Positions 1,653-36,409 of a stretch of DNA of 64,000 nt are shown one piece after another. The notes beneath the pieces were generated by a model. The model saw only the letters and a list, made by a program, of their open reading frames with translations. It ran no database searches and was not told where the DNA came from. The DNA is taken from the NCBI RefSeq assembly GCF_056712565.1, contig NZ_CM160072.1. One strand, written 5' to 3'. Position 1 is the stretch's first letter, and each line of letters starts with the position of its first letter. Position numbers and translations under genes: made by a program.

Positions 1653-2974
1653 CGCACGATAATATCGATATTCTGGTGGTGGATGATGACATTAGCCACT
1701 GCACTATTTTGCAGGCTTTGCTGCGCGGCTGGGGCTATAACGTCGCGCTGGCGAACAGCGGGCGACAGGCGCTGGAGCAGGTGCGGGAACAGGTTTTTGA
1801 TCTTGTGCTTTGCGATGTGCGAATGGCAGAGATGGATGGTATCGCCACGCTAAAAGAGATCAAAACATTAAACCCCGCGATTCCGGTGCTGATTATGACC
1901 GCGTACTCCAGCATCGAGACGGCGGTAGAGGCGTTGAAAACCGGGGCGCTGGATTATCTCATCAAGCCGCTGGATTTCGATAACCTACAGTCGACGCTGG
2001 AAAAGGCGCTCGCGCATACACACAGTGTTGACGCTGAAACGCCTGCGGTGTCTGCCAGCCAGTTCGGTATGGTCGGTAAAAGCCCGGCGATGCAACACCT
2101 GCTCAGTGAAATCGCCCTCGTCGCGCCATCGGAAGCCACGGTGCTGATCCACGGCGATTCCGGCACCGGTAAAGAGCTGGTCGCCAGGGCGATTCACGCC
2201 AGTAGCGCACGTAGCGAAAAACCGCTGGTAACGCTCAACTGCGCGGCGCTCAACGAATCCTTGCTGGAGTCTGAATTGTTCGGTCACGAAAAAGGGGCGT
2301 TTACCGGGGCCGACAAACGCCGGGAAGGGCGCTTTGTTGAGGCGGACGGCGGCACGTTGTTTCTCGATGAAATTGGCGATATCTCGCCGATGATGCAGGT
2401 GCGTCTGCTACGTGCGATTCAGGAGCGCGAAGTTCAGCGTGTCGGTAGCAACCAGACTATTTCGGTTGATGTCCGGCTGATTGCGGCAACCCATCGCGAT
2501 CTTGCCGCAGAGGTGAATGCCGGGCGTTTTCGCCAGGATCTCTACTATCGGCTGAACGTGGTGGCGATTGAAGTACCATCGCTGCGGCAACGGCGGGAAG
2601 ATATTCCTCTGCTGGCTGGCCATTTTCTTCAGCGCTTTGCCGAACGTAATCGCAAGGCGGTAAAAGGCTTTACGCCCCAGGCGATGGATCTGCTGATTCA
2701 TTACGACTGGCCGGGAAATATTCGTGAACTGGAAAACGCGGTGGAACGGGCGGTGGTGCTGCTGACCGGGGAATATATTTCCGAACGCGAGCTGCCGCTG
2801 GCGATTGCCAGTACGCCGATCCCGCTGGTACAAAGTCAGGATATTCAGCCGCTGGTGGAAGTCGAAAAAGAGGTGATTCTGGCGGCGCTGGAGAAAACGG
2901 GCGGCAACAAAACCGAAGCCGCCCGCCAGTTAGGGATCACGCGCAAAACGCTATTGGCAAAACTGTCGCGTTAG
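1649..2974 (+). CDS. zraR: sigma54-dependent response regulator ZraR (HydG)
   Basis: 441-aa ORF: receiver domain, AAA+ sigma54-activator motifs (GDSGTGKE Walker A, GAFTGA loop), C-terminal HTH; operon with zraS. Confidence 0.92.
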
Positions 2975-4260
2975 TTCTGCTCGCGTTCGATAGCGCGCCA
3001 GCCGATATCTTTCCGGCAGAAGCAGTCGTCCCAATGGATATCGGTCATTAAGGCATAAGCGCGTTTCTGCGCTTCTGCCACGGTATGACCCAGCGCGGTA
3101 ACGCACAGTACGCGCCCGCCGCTGGTCACTACCTGCTCGTCATCCGCTAGTTTCGTGCCCGCGTGGAACACTTTGCCGTCTGCCACTTCTTCCAGCGGCA
3201 GGCCGTGGATCACATCGCCGGTGCGGTAATCGCCCGGATATCCACCCGCAGCCATCACCACGCCGAGAGAAGCGCGTTCATCCCACTCGGACGTTTTCTC
3301 GTCCAGCTTGCCTTCACAGGCCGCCAGGCAGAGCTCAACCAGATCGGACTTCATGCGCAGCATAATCGGCTGGGTTTCCGGATCGCCAAAGCGGCAGTTA
3401 AATTCAATAACCTTCGGATTGCCCTGTTTGTCGATCATCAGGCCCGCGTAGAGAAAACCAGTGTAGGTGTTGCCTTCCGCCGCCATGCCTTTCACGGTTG
3501 GCCAGATGATACGCTCCATCGTGCGCTGATGAACCTCATCGGTCACTACTGGCGCAGGGGAGTAAGCGCCCATCCCGCCGGTGTTCGGCCCGGTATCTTT
3601 ATCGCCTACGCGTTTGTGATCCTGGCTGGTGGCCATCGGCAGCACATGCTCGCCGTCCACCATCACGATAAAGCTCGCTTCTTCGCCGTCGAGGAACTCT
3701 TCGATAACAATGCGATGACCCGCGTCGCCAAACGCGTTGCCCGCCAGCATGTCGCGCACGGCGGCTTCAGCTTCTTCCAGCGTCATCGCCACGATAACGC
3801 CTTTCCCGGCGGCCAGACCGTCCGCTTTAATGACGATTGGCGCGCCTTTCTCACGCAGATACGCCAGCGCAGGTTCTACCTCGGTGAAGTTCTGGTATTC
3901 CGCTGTGGGAATGTTATGGCGGGCCAGAAAGTCTTTGGTGAATGCTTTAGAACCTTCCAGTTGTGCAGCACCTGCGGTTGGGCCGAAGATTTTCAGCCCG
4001 GCGGCGCGGAAGGTATCGACTACGCCTTTCACCAGCGGCGCTTCCGGGCCGACGATGGTTAGATCTACCTTTTCGTTTTGTGCGAAATCCAGCAGCGCCG
4101 GGATATCGGTTACGCCGATAGCGACGTTCTGTAGCGCGGGTTCCAGCGCAGTGCCTGCATTACCCGGAGCAACAAAAACAGTTTCAACCAGCGGCGACTG
4201 AGCCGCTTTCCAGGCCAGCGCGTGCTCGCGCCCGCCGTTACCAATCACTAATACTTTCAT
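2971..4260 (-). CDS. purD: phosphoribosylamine-glycine ligase (GAR synthetase)
   Basis: 429-aa ORF starting MKVLVIGNGGREHALAWK, ATP-grasp family; purHD gene pair as in K-12. Confidence 0.93.
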   Translation of the reverse strand: MKVLVIGNGGREHALAWKAAQSPLVETVFVAPGNAGTALEPALQNVAIGVTDIPALLDFAQNEKVDLTIVGPEAPLVKGVVDTFRAAGLKIFGPTAGAAQLEGSKAFTKDFLARHNIPTAEYQNFTEVEPALAYLREKGAPIVIKADGLAAGKGVIVAMTLEEAEAAVRDMLAGNAFGDAGHRIVIEEFLDGEEASFIVMVDGEHVLPMATSQDHKRVGDKDTGPNTGGMGAYSPAPVVTDEVHQRTMERIIWPTVKGMAAEGNTYTGFLYAGLMIDKQGNPKVIEFNCRFGDPETQPIMLRMKSDLVELCLAACEGKLDEKTSEWDERASLGVVMAAGGYPGDYRTGDVIHGLPLEEVADGKVFHAGTKLADDEQVVTSGGRVLCVTALGHTVAEAQKRAYALMTDIHWDDCFCRKDIGWRAIEREQN

Positions 4261-4271
4261 CTATTGCTCCA

Positions 4272-5861
4272 TTAATGGCGGAAGTGGCGCATGTCGGTGA
4301 AGAGCATCGCAATACCGTGCTCGTCGGCGGCGGCAATCACTTCGTCATCACGGATGGAACCGCCAGGCTGGATTACACAGGTCACGCCCGCAGCGGCGGC
4401 GGCATCAATACCGTCGCGGAACGGGAAGAACGCGTCAGAAGCCATCGAGGAACCTTTCACTTCCAGACCTTCATCGGCGGCTTTAATACCGGCGATTTTC
4501 GCGGAGTACACGCGGCTCATCTGGCCCGCGCCAATACCGATGGTCATATTGTTTTTGGCATAGACGATAGCGTTGGATTTCACGAACTTCGCCACTTTCC
4601 AGCAGAACAGCGCATCACGCAATTCCTGTTCGGTCGGCTGGCGTTTGGTGACGACGCGCAGTTCTTCTGCACCGACCATCCCCAGATCGCGATCCTGAAC
4701 CAGCAGACCGCCGTTCACGCGTTTGAAATCAAGACCCGGAACACGCTCGCCCCACTGACCGCAGGTCAGAACGCGTACGTTTTGCTTGGCGGCGGTGATT
4801 TTCAGGGCTTCTTCGCTGGCGGACGGCGCAATAATCACTTCGACGAACTGACGAGAAATGATGGCCTGCGCGGTTTCAGCATCCAGTTCGCGGTTAAAGG
4901 CAATGATGCCGCCGAATGCGGAGGTTGGGTCGGTTTTGTACGCGCGATCGTAAGCATCAAGAATGGAATTGCCGATAGCCACGCCGCAAGGGTTGGCGTG
5001 TTTCACAATCACACATGCCGGCTCGGCGAACTCTTTCACGCACTCCAGCGCCGCATCGGTGTCGGCGATGTTGTTATAAGAGAGGGCTTTACCTTGAACC
5101 TGGGTTGCAGTAGCAACGGAGGCTTCTTTCACATTCTCTTCTATATAGAAGGCAGCCTGCTGGTGGCTGTTCTCGCCGTAACGCATATCCTGCTTCTTAA
5201 TGAAGTTCAGGTTCAGCGTGCGTGGGAAGCGACCGGCGGCTTCTTTGCTTTCACCGTGGTAAGCCGGAACCATGCTGCCGAAGTAGTTGGCAATCATGCT
5301 GTCGTAGGCGGCGGTGTGTTCGAAGGCTTTGATGGCAAGGTCAAAGCGAGTTTCCAGAGTCAGGGAGCCTTCATTGGCATCTATCTCTTTAATAATGGCG
5401 TCGTAGTCGCTGCTCTTCACCACGATTGCGACATCTTTATGGTTCTTGGCGGCAGAGCGCACCATCGTCGGGCCGCCGATATCGATGTTCTCAACCGCAT
5501 CTTCCAGCGAGCAGCCTTCACGAGCAACGGTCTGGGCGAACGGATACAGGTTAACAACCACCATATCGATAGGCTGGATCTGATGTTCTTCCATAATGGT
5601 ATCGTCCTGGCCGCGACGGCCCAGAATTCCACCATGTACTTTCGGATGCAGGGTCTTCACGCGTCCATCCATCATCTCCGGGAAACCGGTGTAATCGGAA
5701 ACTTCGGTTACCGGCAGACCTTTTTCTGCTAACAGACGGGCTGTGCCCCCTGTAGACAGCAGCTCCACACCGCGTGCGGAAAGTGCCTGGGCGAATTCGA
5801 CGATACCGGCTTTGTCAGAAACACTGAGCAGAGCGCGGCGGACTGGACGACGTTGTTGCAT
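4272..5861 (-). CDS. purH: bifunctional AICAR formyltransferase / IMP cyclohydrolase
   Basis: 529-aa ORF starting [19 protein letters not shown], immediately upstream of purD on the same strand. Confidence 0.93.
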
Positions 5862-31842: not shown

Positions 31843-32790
31843 TTATTTCAGTAATAGTTCAGCTGTGCTGCTATTCGTTACCAGACAATTAATATATTTT
31901 CCACGCAGTGCACCAACAATTCCGCTGTATTTTTCTTCGCTCATGGCAATGCCAATGGAATACCGTGCCTGCTTTAATTTATTCATTTCGATAGAGAGTG
32001 TTTTTTCGCTCATATTCGTTTCAACCATTGCGCCGTGAATATCAAAAAAGCGCGAGCAAATATCGCCAGCAACCTGGCGGGCATTCAGGTCGTCACTCTC
32101 TTCACCACCATAAAACGCATGCCAGTTAGCGCCGTCGCGAATGGCCGGTGAGCCAATTCCCACCAGGGCGACATCCAGATTATCCCAGTAGGCAGAGATG
32201 GTTTTAAAGTGCTGAGACTGCATGATCCCATTACGAATTAATGGGTTATCCAGCAGCGCCGGAAAATCCGCGAGATGCGATTCCCCTTTCAGCTTCGCTG
32301 CCGCGCTGTAGGTTAATGTGTTTACGTGATAGCGGCTTTCGAGTTTACCGGACGGGCCGCCAATAATCGGCACGCAAATTAACTGCCGCGATTGCCCCGC
32401 CTGCGGCAAGTTTTCAACCAGTGCGCTCACCGCGCGGCCCCAGGAAAAACCGACAATATCGCCAGGTTCCAGCAAGCGATCCAGCAGTTGCGCGCCGTGT
32501 AACCCCATCATCGCCAGTTGAATATCTTCATCCTCATCATTTCCTGACACCACCACAACGTCTTTCAGGCCAAACTTTTGCTTCACTTGCTGCTCCAGCC
32601 AGAGATTTTCGTTGTAGTCATAGTTGATGGCGATGGTGACAATTCCCTGATCGCGGCCTCGTTTAAGCAAGCGGCTGATGGTAGTGCGATAAATACCCAG
32701 TTCGCGCGCAATTTGCGCCTGCGTCATATCCTGTTCGTAATAGAGTTGGGCAATCTTCACAATCAAACGGATATCGTCACTGTTTTCCAT
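31843..32790 (-). CDS. sorC: sorbose operon transcriptional regulator, SorC family
   Basis: 315-aa product from MENSDDIRLIVKIAQLYYEQDMTQAQIARELG (HTH) with AGGAGG 5 nt upstream; C-terminal sugar-phosphate binding domain. Confidence 0.8.
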   Translation of the reverse strand: MENSDDIRLIVKIAQLYYEQDMTQAQIARELGIYRTTISRLLKRGRDQGIVTIAINYDYNENLWLEQQVKQKFGLKDVVVVSGNDEDEDIQLAMMGLHGAQLLDRLLEPGDIVGFSWGRAVSALVENLPQAGQSRQLICVPIIGGPSGKLESRYHVNTLTYSAAAKLKGESHLADFPALLDNPLIRNGIMQSQHFKTISAYWDNLDVALVGIGSPAIRDGANWHAFYGGEESDDLNARQVAGDICSRFFDIHGAMVETNMSEKTLSIEMNKLKQARYSIGIAMSEEKYSGIVGALRGKYINCLVTNSSTAELLLK

Positions 32791-33137
32791 TGCCGCCTCC
32801 TGGTTCTGCACATTTGTGCAAATACGCTTTCTCACCGCTTGATCTGATATAACCCCATCATGATGGCCTTTCAAAGCGATTTTTCACTCTTTGCATGGGG
32901 GGAAATAGCGCTTTCTCTTGCACATTTGTTTCTCTGCGTAGTAGTCATCAGCACAGGTGTGCAGCGATGCGTAATTTGTTGATTATTCTTATTTTGCCAG
33001 GCAAATTTGCATCGTACTTCCGGAGACACTTTTGTGATAAAAGGCGTGGCAGATCACATTTAATTTCGACGTTGCCGCATAACCCTGTTTTTCCCCGCTA
33101 AGAGGTACGGTATATTCCGCGTTTTACAGGAGAATTT

Positions 33138-34010
33138 ATGCTGCCCGACTCATCAGTCCGTTTAAATAAATACATCAGCGAAAGCGGAATTTGCTCACGC
33201 CGCGAAGCGGATCGCTATATCGAGCAAGGCAATGTGTTCCTTAATGGCAAGCGAGCCACCATTGGCGATCAGGTGAAACCCGGCGACGTTGTGAAAGTAA
33301 ATGGTCAGTTGATTGAGCCTCGGGAATCCGAAGATTTGGTACTTATCGCCCTGAACAAGCCCGTCGGTATTGTCAGCACCACCGAAGATGGCGAGCGCGA
33401 TAACATTGTCGATTTCGTTAACCACAGCAAACGCGTGTTCCCGATTGGCCGCCTGGATAAAGATTCCCAGGGGCTGATTTTCCTCACCAATCACGGCGAT
33501 CTGGTGAATAAGATCCTCCGTGCGGGTAACGATCATGAGAAAGAGTATCTGGTGACGGTTGATAAACCGATTACCGATGAATTTATTCGTGGTATGGGGG
33601 CGGGAGTACCGATCCTCGGGACGGTAACTAAAAAGTGCAAAGTCAAAAAAGAAGCACCGTTTGTCTTCCGCATTACCCTGGTGCAGGGGCTGAACCGTCA
33701 GATTCGTCGCATGTGCGAGCACTTTGGTTACGAAGTGAAAAAGCTGGAACGTACGCGCATTATGAACGTCAGCTTAAGCGGCATTCCGCTGGGTGAGTGG
33801 CGCGATTTAACCGACGATGAGTTAATCGATCTCTTTAAGCTCATTGAAAATTCCTCTTCCGAGGCAAAACCTAAAGCGAAGGCCAAACCGAAAACGGTAG
33901 GCATCAAACGTCCAGTCGTTAAGATGGAAAAAACGGCGGAAAAAGGCGGTCGCCCGGCGTCCAACGGTAAGCGTTTTACCTCGCCGGGGCGCAAAAAGAA
34001 GGGGCGTTAA
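33138..34010 (+). CDS. rluF: 23S rRNA pseudouridine synthase RluF
   Basis: 290-aa ORF, S4 domain plus RsuA-type pseudouridine synthase core, basic C-terminal tail. Confidence 0.88.
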
Positions 34011-35904: not shown

Positions 35905-36165
35905 ATCCATTTTCAGCCTTGGCACAAGGGAAGAGCGGAAGACGGGTGGGCGCAGAGCGATACTTCGCTACTATTTTCACCCAGAAGTGCTCCACCACTT
36001 GCGAAACGCCCGACTGCGAACGCTTCTGGTGACAACCCAGGGGATTCAGCCCCTGTAGCCGATGATGAACGTAGCCAGCCGTTCAATCACCTCGGCGATG
36101 CACCCCCTCAGGTGTTATCACAGGACTGGCTCCTCCAACACCGTTACTTGGGCAACGCGCCTCTT
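35905..36165 (-). promoter_or_regulatory. lysine riboswitch (L-box) in lysC 5' leader
   Basis: Long untranslated leader upstream of lysC; reverse complement reads as the lysC leader sequence I recall from K-12 (…GAGGCGCGTTGCCCAAGTAACGGTG…GGGTGAAAATAGTAGCGAAGTATCGC…). Confidence 0.8.
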
Positions 36166-36409
36166 CTGGCCTGCGCTAGCGCAGGTAGTACATTTATAAA
36201 TAAAGGGTGAGCGGGGCGGTTGTCAACGATGGGGTCATGCGGATTTTTCATCCACTCCTGGCGGTCAGTAGTTCAGCTAATAAATGCTTCGCTGCGCTAA
36301 GGGTTTACACTCAACATTACGCTAACGGCACTAAAACCATCACATTTTTCTGTGACTGGCGCTACAATCTTCCAAAGTCACAATTCTCAAAATCAGAAGA
36401 GTATTGCTA

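What the first reader, a model, noticed from the sequence alone, without database searches (positions are those of the whole stretch)
32800..32935. Palindromic candidate operator sites in the sorC promoter/leader
A perfect inverted repeat TGCACA-TT-TGTGCA (32807-32820) sits immediately upstream of the sorC RBS. A related half-site-containing motif TTGCACATTTGTT occurs about 110 bp further upstream (32918-32930) in the divergent sorC-rluF intergenic region. Repetition of the TGCACATTTGT core suggests binding sites for SorC (autoregulation or activation) or another regulator.
Basis: seen in the sequence. Interest (0 to 1): 0.35.

Follow-up and report, generated by a model that had tools for sequence, protein, structure and literature searches.

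The report
Candidate SorC operators at sor promoter
The palindrome in front of the E. coli sorbose regulator gene sorC, and its upstream repeat, are real and are the most conserved bases of the control region, so they are very probably the still-undefined DNA sites where SorC binds to switch the sorbose operon off and on.

Summary
TGCACATTTGTGCA lies at 32807-32820, 5 nt from the sorC Shine-Dalgarno sequence. TTGCACATTTGTT lies 112 bp upstream.

They belong to an array of four CAC-N4-GTG dyads. I call them O1 to O4. O3 is at 32950-32963 and O4 at 33025-33038.

In 27 orthologous sorC upstream regions from about 13 enterobacterial genera, flanking DNA is only 48-60% identical to the window. The longest invariant runs all fall in O1, in O2 and in a -10-like TATA. 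Site spacing is fixed at 112, 31 and 75/76 bp.

The same 14-bp dyad occurs next to SorC-like genes only 33-49% identical, on Firmicute genomes and metagenome contigs. One locus has two perfect copies 112 bp apart. Homologues with His in place of Tyr in the recognition helix carry ATCACA-NN-TGTGAT instead.

The geometry matches the B. subtilis DeoR half-operator, and the Arg residues that contact DNA are conserved.

The best reading is that these are SorC operators bracketing a weak promoter (TTGAAA-17-TATATC). O1 sits in the leader and represses or autoregulates. The upstream sites and a CRP-like site serve activation. The looping mechanism is inferred, and no binding data exist.

This is a new member of a known kind, of modest interest.

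The parts
32807..32820 (.). O1: perfect palindrome TGCACA-TT-TGTGCA (sorC sense TGCACAAATGTGCA), 17-30 nt upstream of the sorC ATG and 5 nt from the Shine-Dalgarno sequence. Predicted position +20..+33 of the leader.
   Evidence: The 16-nt block TTTGCACAAATGTGCA is at least 92% conserved in 26 loci. It holds the longest invariant runs across all 28 sequences. The identical 14-mer occurs next to SorC-like genes in L050 and L046.
32918..32932 (.). O2: TTGCACATTTGTTTC. One intact half-site (TTGCACA on the + strand) and a degenerate partner (9/12 to the dyad). Its centre is 112 bp from the O1 centre, predicted at about -86.5.
   Evidence: The block CAAATGTGCAA is conserved and GTGCA is invariant. 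Spacing to O1 is 112 bp in 24 other loci, 113 in Serratia and 101 in Kluyvera, where the site is a full palindrome.
32950..32963 (.). O3: AGCACAGGTGTGCA, with GCACA-GG-TGTGC a perfect 5+2+5 dyad (11/12). It lies 31 bp from O2 and 143 bp from O1.
   Evidence: GCAC-N4-GTGC is kept in the non-Kluyvera loci, apart from one base change in Citrobacter Cu233, although the central bases vary (CC, TC, AA, AC, AG).
33025..33038 (.). O4: GACACTTTTGTGAT (sense ATCACAAAAGTGTC). Weak dyad with an intact CAC-N4-GTG core (7/12). It lies 75/76 bp from O3 and 19-20 bp from the centre of the CRP-like site.
   Evidence: CACAAAAGTG is at least 92% conserved. Its position is fixed in 24 loci.
33040..33061 (.). CRP-like site, sense AAATGTGATCTGCCACGCCTTT. 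It matches the 22-bp CRP consensus at 16 of 22 positions (my count), with the left half TGTGA perfect.
   Evidence: TGTGATC is a conserved block. TGTGA-N6-NCAC is found in many loci. The site is retained in Pantoea, Serratia and Entomohabitans, where rluF is not the neighbour.
32869..32874 (-). Candidate -35 hexamer TTGAAA of the sor promoter (P1).
   Evidence: My own PWM scan. TTGnnn-17-TATATC is the only promoter-like pair at a conserved position in all 28 sequences. The tool scan misses it because the -10 hexamer lacks T at position 6.
32840..32855 (-). Invariant block GGGTTATATCAGATCA. It contains the candidate -10 hexamer TATATC (32846-32851) and the predicted start region (TSS about 32839).
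   Evidence: The TSS is inferred, not measured.
32796..32801 (-). Shine-Dalgarno sequence AGGAGG of sorC. The start codon is at 32788-32790.
31843..32790 (-). sorC, first gene of sorCDFBAME. SorC-family regulator with an N-terminal HTH and a PF04198 sugar-binding domain.
   Evidence: Near-identical to crystallised K. pneumoniae SorC, PDB 2w48 (E 2e-182).

Best explanation
The two motifs are operator sites for SorC, the product of the adjacent gene. They belong to a conserved array of four dyads of the form (T)GCAC-A-NN-T-GTGC(A).

- Each full dyad would bind one DBD-dimer of SorC, as the TTGAA-N6-TTCAA half-operator binds B. subtilis DeoR.
- The sites bracket a weak promoter (TTGAAA-17-TATATC, TSS near 32839).
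- O1, the only perfect palindrome, lies in the leader next to the ribosome-binding site. It would give repression and autoregulation, either as a roadblock or as the downstream anchor of a loop to O2 (112 bp).
- O2 and O3 are 31 bp apart and centred near -86 and -117. Together with O4 and a CRP-like site further upstream, they would provide the sorbose-dependent and cAMP-dependent activation known for this operon.

What is shown: the sites, their conservation, their fixed spacing, and their co-variation with the regulator. What is inferred: SorC binding, the position of the TSS, the loop, and the division of labour between the sites.
For: (1) Statistics.

(2) Phylogenetic footprint. In 27 orthologous regions from Escherichia, Pseudocitrobacter, Citrobacter, Klebsiella, Raoultella, Mangrovibacter, Pantoea, Serratia, Cedecea, Entomohabitans, Kluyvera and Enterobacter, O1 and the O2 half-site are invariant, while the region as a whole is 48-60% identical to the window.

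(3) Spacing. O1-O2 is 112 bp, O2-O3 is 31 bp and O3-O4 is 75/76 bp, fixed in 24-25 loci. Kluyvera has 101 bp, which is 112 minus 11, one helical turn.

(4) The motif follows the regulator, not the sor genes.
- Kluyvera has lost sorDFB but keeps sorC with O1 and O2.
- Loci encoding SorC-like proteins only 33-49% identical carry (T)GCACA-NN-TGTGC(A) next to the regulator or its operon (L027, L029, L046, L048, L050, L056; L028 and L055 have variants). The chance expectation is about 0.02 per locus.
- L056 has two perfect copies 112 bp apart. The proximal one abuts the ribosome-binding site and a promoter-like pair lies between them, the same layout as here.

(5) Protein-DNA co-variation. Loci with a Tyr helix (YRTT/YRTS) have TGCACA..TGTGCA. 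His-helix loci (HRST/HRTT; L051, L053, L058) have ATCACA..TGTGAT.

(6) Family geometry. DeoR binds TTGAACA half-sites in a 16-bp TTGAA-N6-TTCAA frame (PMC11229326), and O1 is TTGCA-N6-TGCA(G/A). The DeoR base-contacting residues R34 and R39 align with SorC R35 and R40.

(7) SorC is documented as a repressor without sorbose and an activator with it (Wohrl 1990, as cited in PMC12817954). sorC is the first gene, and this is the only sizeable non-coding region of the operon.
Against: - No binding or expression experiment is available.
- The family's canonical operator, two dyads about two helical turns apart (DeoR and CggR; 19-20 bp in several Firmicute homologues), is not present in E. coli. The nearest partners are 31 and 112 bp away.
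- O2 is only a half-site and O4 matches 7/12.
- The predicted -10 hexamer (TATATC) lacks the near-universal T at position 6, and the TSS is unmeasured.
- The CRP-like site would lie at about -211.5 from that TSS, a distance at which CRP is not known to act directly.
- O1 would also form a 7-bp RNA hairpin in the leader, so an RNA-level contribution cannot be excluded.
Confidence: 0.78

Rival explanations
1. The palindromes are bound by a regulator other than SorC, for example CytR, whose octamer repeats contain TGCAA, or CRP, or an unknown factor.
For: O1 can be read as TTTGCACA-AA-TGTGCA(G/A)A, two inverted octamers 2 bp apart. Each matches 5/8 to the CytR octamer GTTGCATT, whose consensus I recall from Pedersen and Valentin-Hansen 1997 as cited in PMC5137460. 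A CRP-like site exists in the region.
Against: - The motif accompanies SorC-like genes on Firmicute genomes and metagenome contigs, in unrelated operons.
- It changes with the recognition helix of the SorC-like protein.
- No pair of CRP sites flanks O1, as CytR needs.
- CRP needs TGTGA-N6-TCACA, not CACA-N2-TGTG.
Confidence: 0.07
2. O1 acts mainly as an RNA hairpin in the sorC 5' leader, controlling mRNA stability or ribosome access, and the upstream copies are unrelated.
For: The predicted leader folds O1 into a 7-bp stem with a 4-nt loop directly 5' of the Shine-Dalgarno sequence. In most other genera the Shine-Dalgarno sequence (GCAGGAG) overlaps the 3' arm.
Against: - The leader's folding energy is not unusual (z = -0.34) and there is no Rfam match.
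- The loop bases are as invariant as the stem, so there is no covariation.
- Related dyads occur in non-transcribed DNA upstream (O2-O4), and at -35 or spacer positions in homologous loci such as L027 and L050. An RNA role cannot explain these.
- It could coexist with the DNA role.
Confidence: 0.08
3. The repeats are chance palindromes, or relics of the insertion or deletion of the sor region, with no function.
For: The sor region is present in only 2863 of 5426 complete E. coli genomes, and its junction lies at about 33103.
Against: - Shuffle statistics.
- Invariance across genera whose flanks have diverged to about 50-60% identity.
- Recurrence in distant phyla.
- The sites lie 65-300 bp inside the junction.
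Confidence: 0.02

Closest known systems
Bacillus subtilis DeoR operator of dra-nupC-pdp (SorC/DeoR subfamily; PDB 7bhy, 8r7y)
   Same: - The regulator has the same fold: HTH DBD plus NagB-like sugar-phosphate domain.
- The dyad half-operator sits in the same 16-bp frame: TTGAA-N6-TTCAA against TTGCA-N6-TGCA(G/A).
- The half-sites TTGAACA and TTGCACA differ by one base.
- The Arg residues that contact bases are conserved.
   Different: - The DeoR operator is one compact 39-bp unit at -60..-21, made of a palindrome plus a degenerate partner about two turns away, and it is bound by one tetramer.
- The sor sites are dispersed over 230 bp (31, 75 and 112 bp apart) and straddle the promoter.
- DeoR is a repressor only. 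SorC is also an activator.
Bacillus subtilis CggR operator of the gapA operon (SorC family, winged-helix subclass)
   Same: - The regulator is the first gene of its own operon.
- The operator lies in the transcribed leader (+32..+77) between the TSS and the regulator's start codon (PMC11229326). This resembles O1 at the predicted +20..+33.
- A tetramer forms as a dimer of dimers.
   Different: - The DBD type differs (MarR-like winged helix) and the repeat sequence is unrelated.
- The two CggR half-operators are adjacent.
- No upstream sites and no activation are known for CggR.
E. coli LsrR boxes in the lsrR-lsrA intergenic region
   Same: The repressor belongs to the SorC/DeoR subfamily (PDB 4l5i; E 6e-29 to SorC). 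It acts in a divergent, CRP-dependent intergenic region with more than one box; that description of the lsr region is from my own knowledge and from PMC5137460.
   Different: I could not retrieve the LsrR box sequences, so no motif comparison was made. The recognition helix differs (TRLKVSR against YRTTISR).
AraC at araBAD (O2-I1 loop switching to I1-I2 activation)
   Same: It works alike only as a hypothesis. One regulator is both repressor and activator. Sites lie on both sides of the promoter region. The spacing looks phase-sensitive: 112 bp against 101 bp, one turn apart.
   Different: The protein family is unrelated. AraC sites are direct repeats and all lie upstream of the TSS. Looping by SorC is untested.

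Membership tests
SorC/DeoR-subfamily operator (HTH subclass) | Lies in the control region of a gene or operon that encodes, or is controlled by, a SorC-family regulator (HTH DBD plus PF04198 sugar-binding domain) | tested here: met
   sorC has PF04198 (E 3e-79) and an N-terminal HTH. It is near-identical to PDB 2w48 SorC. The sites lie 17-250 nt upstream of its ATG.
SorC/DeoR-subfamily operator (HTH subclass) | Dyad-symmetric half-operator of about 14-18 bp, with the two recognition helices of a DBD-dimer about one turn apart | tested here: met
   O1 is 6+2+6 (7+2+7 in E69, Pseudocitrobacter and Entomohabitans). It has the same 16-bp frame as DeoR OL, TTGAA-N6-TTCAA.
SorC/DeoR-subfamily operator (HTH subclass) | Two half-operators about two helical turns (19-22 bp) apart, bound by one tetramer | tested here: not met
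   In E. coli the centre-to-centre distances are 31, 75 and 112 bp, and no conserved dyad lies 19-22 bp from any site. The feature is met in homologous loci L027/L029 (19 bp), L028 and L051 (20 bp) and L056 (19 bp).
SorC/DeoR-subfamily operator (HTH subclass) | Base-contacting residues of the recognition helix conserved, and motif co-varying with them | tested here: met
   DeoR R34 and R39 align with SorC R35 and R40. Tyr-helix loci have TGCACA..TGTGCA and His-helix loci have ATCACA..TGTGAT.
SorC/DeoR-subfamily operator (HTH subclass) | Specific binding by the purified regulator, relieved or altered by the sugar or sugar-phosphate effector | not testable with these tools
   This needs EMSA or footprinting. 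A 2010 paper states that DeoR was the only other family member with an identified DNA site (PMC2943609).
CRP (cAMP receptor protein) site | 22-bp site with TGTGA-N6-TCACA, centred at -41.5, -61.5, -72.5 and so on from a TSS | tested here: inconclusive
   16/22 to the consensus, with a perfect and conserved TGTGA(TC) and a partly conserved CAC. The distance to the only conserved promoter-like pair is about -211.5. An upstream alternative promoter is not conserved.
Sigma-70 promoter | -35 TTGACA and -10 TATAAT hexamers 16-18 bp apart, and a mapped TSS | tested here: inconclusive
   The tool scan finds none. My PWM finds TTGAAA-17-TATATC at the same aligned position in all 28 sequences, scoring 3.3-8.0 bits against a shuffled 95th percentile of 6.7. 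No TSS data were found.
CytR operator | Inverted or direct GTTGCATT octamers flanked by tandem CRP sites | tested here: not met
   5/8 per octamer. No CRP sites flank O1. The motif tracks SorC-like genes in Firmicute contigs.

The most novel reading that the evidence does not exclude
SorC does not use the compact two-turn tandem operator seen in DeoR and CggR. Instead it uses a dispersed four-site array that brackets its promoter.

Without inducer, a tetramer would loop O1 (leader) to O2 (112 bp; 101 bp in Kluyvera; 112 bp again in a gut operon whose regulator is only 37% identical) and shut the promoter. With sorbose(-phosphate), the dimers would redistribute to O2/O3 (and O4 next to CRP) and activate.

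This would be an AraC-like loop switch in a family so far described structurally only as repressors. It would come with a readable specificity code: Tyr34 goes with TG..CA and His with AT..AT.
Probability: 0.3. Interest if true: 0.55.

Novelty: new member of a known kind. Interest (0 to 1): 0.4.

Why it matters
SorC gave its name to a large family of sugar-responsive regulators and was crystallised in 2009. It has been known since 1990 to act as both repressor and activator. Yet I found no operator described for it in the literature I could search.

A sharply defined 14-bp dyad is now available, together with three companion sites at fixed spacing, a candidate promoter and a candidate CRP site. 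This makes the dual mechanism directly testable by footprinting, phase-shift insertions and helix swaps.

The sor operon is present in about half of complete E. coli genomes. Recent papers report it enriched in pathogenic lineages and relevant to fitness and virulence (PMC12817954, PMC13410766). Its control region therefore has some practical interest.

The cross-phylum motif also allows regulon prediction for many uncharacterised SorC-like regulators.

Tried and rejected
- **Tool promoter and terminator scan** of 32700-33200 found nothing. I replaced it with my own PWM, which tolerates a non-T at position 6 of the -10 hexamer.
- **An upstream CRP-proximal promoter** (P2, -10 ending near -184) scores well in some Citrobacter and in E. 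coli E69 but is not conserved, so it is not adopted.
- **RNA element.** There is no Rfam hit, and the leader fold is unremarkable (z = -0.34).
- **The repeat finder on distant homologue loci** with seed 6 and length 10 found nothing. A custom palindrome scan then found the dyads.
- **First look at L046 and L048** (33-34% identity) found no dyad directly upstream of the regulator gene. A whole-locus scan found it elsewhere in the locus.
- **The search for homologous proteins** returned only close relatives and did not help with diversity. The search of protein representatives did.
- **Literature.** Seven searches found no SorC operator, TSS or RegPrecise entry. The primary papers are not held: Wohrl 1990, de Sanctis 2009, Sprenger and Lengeler 1984.
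- **LsrR box sequences** could not be retrieved.
- **Degenerate partner dyads** 19-22 bp from O1, O2 and O3 were sought. None is conserved. In some genera AGCAAATATGTGAT lies 15 bp from O1, and the AATCA-N4-ATTA block lies 22 bp from O3 but does not resemble the dyad.
- **CytR and LacI-family readings** were rejected. There is no central CG, the match is 5/8 per octamer, and no CRP sites flank O1.

Full report
**1. The observation**

The window is E. coli. Bases 32700-33200 are 100% identical to strain ATCC 11775.

The minus-strand CDS 31843-32790 is annotated as a sugar-binding transcriptional regulator. It heads an operon of an SDR oxidoreductase, four mannose/sorbose-type PTS subunits and sorE, that is, sorCDFBAME. 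rluF diverges from it at 33138.

The protein has PF04198 and an N-terminal HTH. It is near-identical to the crystallised K. pneumoniae SorC, PDB 2w48 (E 2e-182).

The sequence shows TGCACATTTGTGCA at 32807-32820, a perfect 6+2+6 inverted repeat. It lies 5 nt from the AGGAGG at 32796-32801 and 17-30 nt upstream of the ATG. TTGCACATTTGTT lies at 32918-32930.

The shared 11-mer occurs exactly twice in the window, both times here.

**2. More than chance, and more than two sites**

The repeat finder found a third dyad, GCACAGGTGTGC, at 32951-32962.

- The exact pattern GCACANNTGTGC occurs twice in 64 kb, both in this 347-bp spacer. The mean over 100 shuffles is 0.11, and no shuffle reached 2.
- Three of the 14 CAC-N4-GTG matches in the window are here. 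The third is CACTTTTGTG at 33027-33036.
- When all 14-mers are scored against TGCACANNTGTGCA, the only 12/12 and 11/12 matches in the window are O1 and O3. O2 scores 9/12 and O4 scores 7/12 with an intact core.

I call the sites O1 (32807-32820), O2 (32919-32932), O3 (32950-32963) and O4 (33025-33038). The centre-to-centre distances are 112, 31 and 75 bp.

**3. Orthologous promoters**

A scan of one genome per species returned 27 enterobacterial loci encoding SorC at 70-99% identity. In all but Kluyvera and one contig that ends before them, sorD, sorF and sorB follow. In most, rluF is the divergent neighbour.

I aligned 330 nt upstream of the start codon.

- Identity to the window is 87-90% within the E. 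coli/Pseudocitrobacter clade and only 48-60% elsewhere.
- Only 44 of 361 columns are invariant. The longest invariant runs are ATGTGCA and GCACA (both in O1), GTGCA (in O2) and TATA.
- Blocks with at least 92% conservation are TGTGATC, CACAAAAGTG (O4), AATCA, GCACA (O3), CAAATGTGCAA (O2), AAAAT, GGGTTATATCAGATCA and TTTGCACAAATGTGCA (O1).

Site spacing is also fixed. O1-O3 is 143 bp (144 in Serratia). O1-O2 is 112 bp (113 in Serratia). O3-O4 is 76 bp (75 in the window).

In Kluyvera the intergenic region is shorter and lacks O3, O4 and the CRP-like site. O2 is a full palindrome there (TGCACAAACGTGCA), and it lies 101 bp from O1, exactly 11 bp (one helical turn) less.

Kluyvera has also lost sorDFB. 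A shikimate-dehydrogenase-like gene and pepE follow its sorC. The sites therefore go with the regulator, not with the sorbose enzymes.

**4. Who binds: evidence from distant homologues**

Three Firmicute genomes encode SorC-like proteins at 43-47% identity. All three have an identical recognition helix, GIYRTTISR.

- L027 and L029 carry GCACAATTGTGC upstream of the gene, with a second half-site 19 bp away.
- L028 carries TTGCACAATTGTAC, with GTACATTTGTGCAA 20 bp on, just before the ribosome-binding site.

I then took diverse representatives of the subfamily, read off their recognition helices and fetched their contigs.

Tyr-helix proteins:

| Locus | Identity | Dyads found |
|---|---|---|
| L050 | 49% | the exact E. 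coli 14-mer TGCACAAATGTGCA, plus ACAAATGTGCAA before the ribosome-binding site |
| L056 | 37% | heads a GutM/EII-GUT operon; two perfect TGCACATATGTGCA copies 112 bp apart; the proximal one is 21-34 nt from the start codon; a promoter-like pair lies between them; a third partial site lies 19 bp away |
| L055 | 36% | TGCACAAAAGTGCA between the regulator and the PTS genes |
| L046 | 34% | TGCACAAATGTGCT and TGCACAAATGTGCA elsewhere in the locus |
| L048 | 33% | AGCACATTTGTGCA elsewhere in the locus |

His-helix proteins (HRST/HRTT):

| Locus | Identity | Dyads found |
|---|---|---|
| L053 | 42% | divergent from a sorD-like/EIIA-man/EIIB-sorb/EIIC-Sor operon; ATCACATTTGTGAT and TCACAAGTGTGA |
| L051 | 37% | ATCACAAATGTGAT, with ATCACAAATGATAT 20 bp away |
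| L058 | 37% | contig starts with ..CATTTGTGAT |
| L057 | 38% | the hybrid AGCACGCTAGTGAT |

The expected chance frequency of such a dyad is about 0.02 per 6-kb locus (my calculation).

So the motif follows the regulator across phyla and across operon types, and its outer bases change with a residue of the recognition helix. This is the strongest in-silico argument that SorC itself is the binding protein. Chloroflexi homologues with other helices show no such palindrome.

**5. Fit to the family**

The 2024 structural paper on DeoR and CggR gives the DeoR left half-operator as ATTGAACAAAATTTCAAT. It reports base-specific contacts in TTGAACA and names R34 and R39 as base-contacting residues (PMC11229326).

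O1 reads T-TTGCA-CAAATG-TGCA(G/A). This is the same 16-bp TTGNA-N6-TNCAA frame, with a half-site one base different. SorC R35 and R40 align with DeoR R34 and R39.

What does not fit is the family's compact operator of two dyads two turns apart. It is present in several of the Firmicute loci (19-20 bp) but absent in the enterobacterial sor region.

A 2010 paper states that DeoR was then the only other family member with an identified DNA site. It relays that the SorC tetramer's DBD pairs are about 70 angstroms, or two turns, apart (PMC2943609). I found no later description of a SorC operator. The primary SorC papers are not in the library.

**6. Promoter context (inferred)**

The tool scan finds no sigma-70 promoter.

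My own PWM finds TTGAAA (32869-32874)-17-TATATC (32846-32851). The equivalent TTGnnn-17-TATA(T/C)C sits at the same aligned position in all 28 sequences, scoring 3.3-8.0 bits against a shuffled 95th percentile of 6.7. It lies inside the invariant block GGGTTATATCAGATCA.

It is a weak promoter, with no T at position 6 of the -10 hexamer, as expected for an activator-dependent one. The TSS would be near 32839. That places O1 at +20..+33, O2 at about -86.5, O3 at about -117.5 and O4 at about -192.5.

The sense sequence AAATGTGATCTGCCACGCCTTT (33040-33061) matches the CRP consensus at 16 of 22 positions. Its TGTGATC is conserved, and its centre lies 19-20 bp from the O4 centre.

It is kept in Pantoea, Serratia and Entomohabitans, where rluF is not adjacent. 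In Pantoea and Serratia, hairpins that look like terminators (by eye) sit just upstream of it. The site therefore belongs to the sor module.

Its distance of about -211.5 from the predicted TSS is unexplained. An alternative upstream promoter is not conserved.

**7. Mechanism proposed**

SorC is reported to repress without sorbose and to activate with it (Wohrl et al. 1990, as cited in PMC12817954).

The anatomy suggests the following. O1 is the only perfect site, lies in the leader and abuts the ribosome-binding site. It would mediate repression and negative autoregulation, much as the CggR operator does at +32..+77.

O2 and O3 (and O4 with CRP) would mediate activation.

A tetramer may bridge O1 and O2 across the promoter. 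The support for this is the 112-bp spacing in enterics, 101 bp in Kluyvera, and 112 bp again in a gut operon whose regulator is only 37% identical.

Binding is inferred with good confidence. The loop and the switch are hypotheses (about 0.3).

**8. Rivals**

- Another regulator (CytR-like or CRP-like) is disfavoured, because the motif tracks and co-varies with SorC-like proteins.
- An RNA hairpin role for O1 is possible but cannot explain O2-O4. The leader fold is unremarkable and there is no Rfam match.
- Chance is excluded.

**9. Verdict**

What is present is a larger, conserved four-site array with a promoter and a CRP-like site.

It is a new member of a known kind: the predicted operator of a named regulator in a structurally characterised family. 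One unusual feature is the dispersed, promoter-bracketing layout. Interest is modest (0.4).

Noticed in passing
window 32825-32833, 32909-32917 and (inverted) 32873-32885: CGCTTTCTC occurs twice, 84 bp apart: once right after O1 and once right before O2. A third, inverted AAAGCG-ATTT copy overlaps the region just upstream of the -35 hexamer. The motif (sense GAGAAAGCG(C)TATTT) is kept only in the E. coli/Pseudocitrobacter clade, not in other genera. It may be a lineage-specific extra site or chance.
   Followed up: partly
window 32788-32806, compared with L005-L031 at about 2985-3003: In most other genera sorC starts at an ATG 6 nt further upstream (M-A/T-M/T/I-E-N...), and its Shine-Dalgarno sequence (GCAGGAG) overlaps the 3' arm of O1. 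In the E. coli/Pseudocitrobacter clade that ATG is lost (GGCG), and a new AGGAGG sits 6 nt downstream. O1 therefore abuts the ribosome-binding site rather than overlapping it.
   Followed up: partly
L023 and L024 (Kluyvera), 2760-5700: Kluyvera keeps a 70%-identical sorC next to rluF but has no sorDFB. A shikimate-dehydrogenase-like gene, pepE and yjbB follow. The intergenic region is shortened and lacks the CRP-like site, O4 and O3. O2 is a full palindrome 101 bp from O1.
   Followed up: partly
window about 33103 (junction); 33111-33116; 33040-61: The sor region is present in 2863 of 5426 complete E. coli genomes. sor-minus genomes match only from about 33103, just upstream of a conserved -10-like TATATT for rluF. 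Because rluF-sorC adjacency is shared by many genera, sor-minus E. coli probably reflects a deletion. The CRP-like site centre lies 72.5 bp upstream of the rluF start predicted from that -10 hexamer, so it might also serve rluF in sor+ strains.
   Followed up: partly
window 32980-32984 and 32972-32975 (sense AATCA ... ATTA), 33001-33010: Further conserved blocks have no assigned function. AATCA-N4-ATTA is a weak dyad centred 22 bp from O3. TGCAAnTTTG is a perfect GCAAATTTGC palindrome in the window. Neither resembles the SorC dyad. They could be sites for another protein or parts of an unrecognised promoter.
   Followed up: no
L010, L014, L016 at about 2955-2985: In some genera, such as Klebsiella spallanzanii, K. 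indica and Mangrovibacter, an 8/12 dyad AGCAAATATGTGAT lies 15 bp (centre to centre) upstream of O1. It is absent in E. coli.
   Followed up: no
L001 12278-12474 (about window 35977-36173): The reference annotation places the lysine riboswitch upstream of lysC in this window. This is a known element unrelated to the finding.
   Followed up: no
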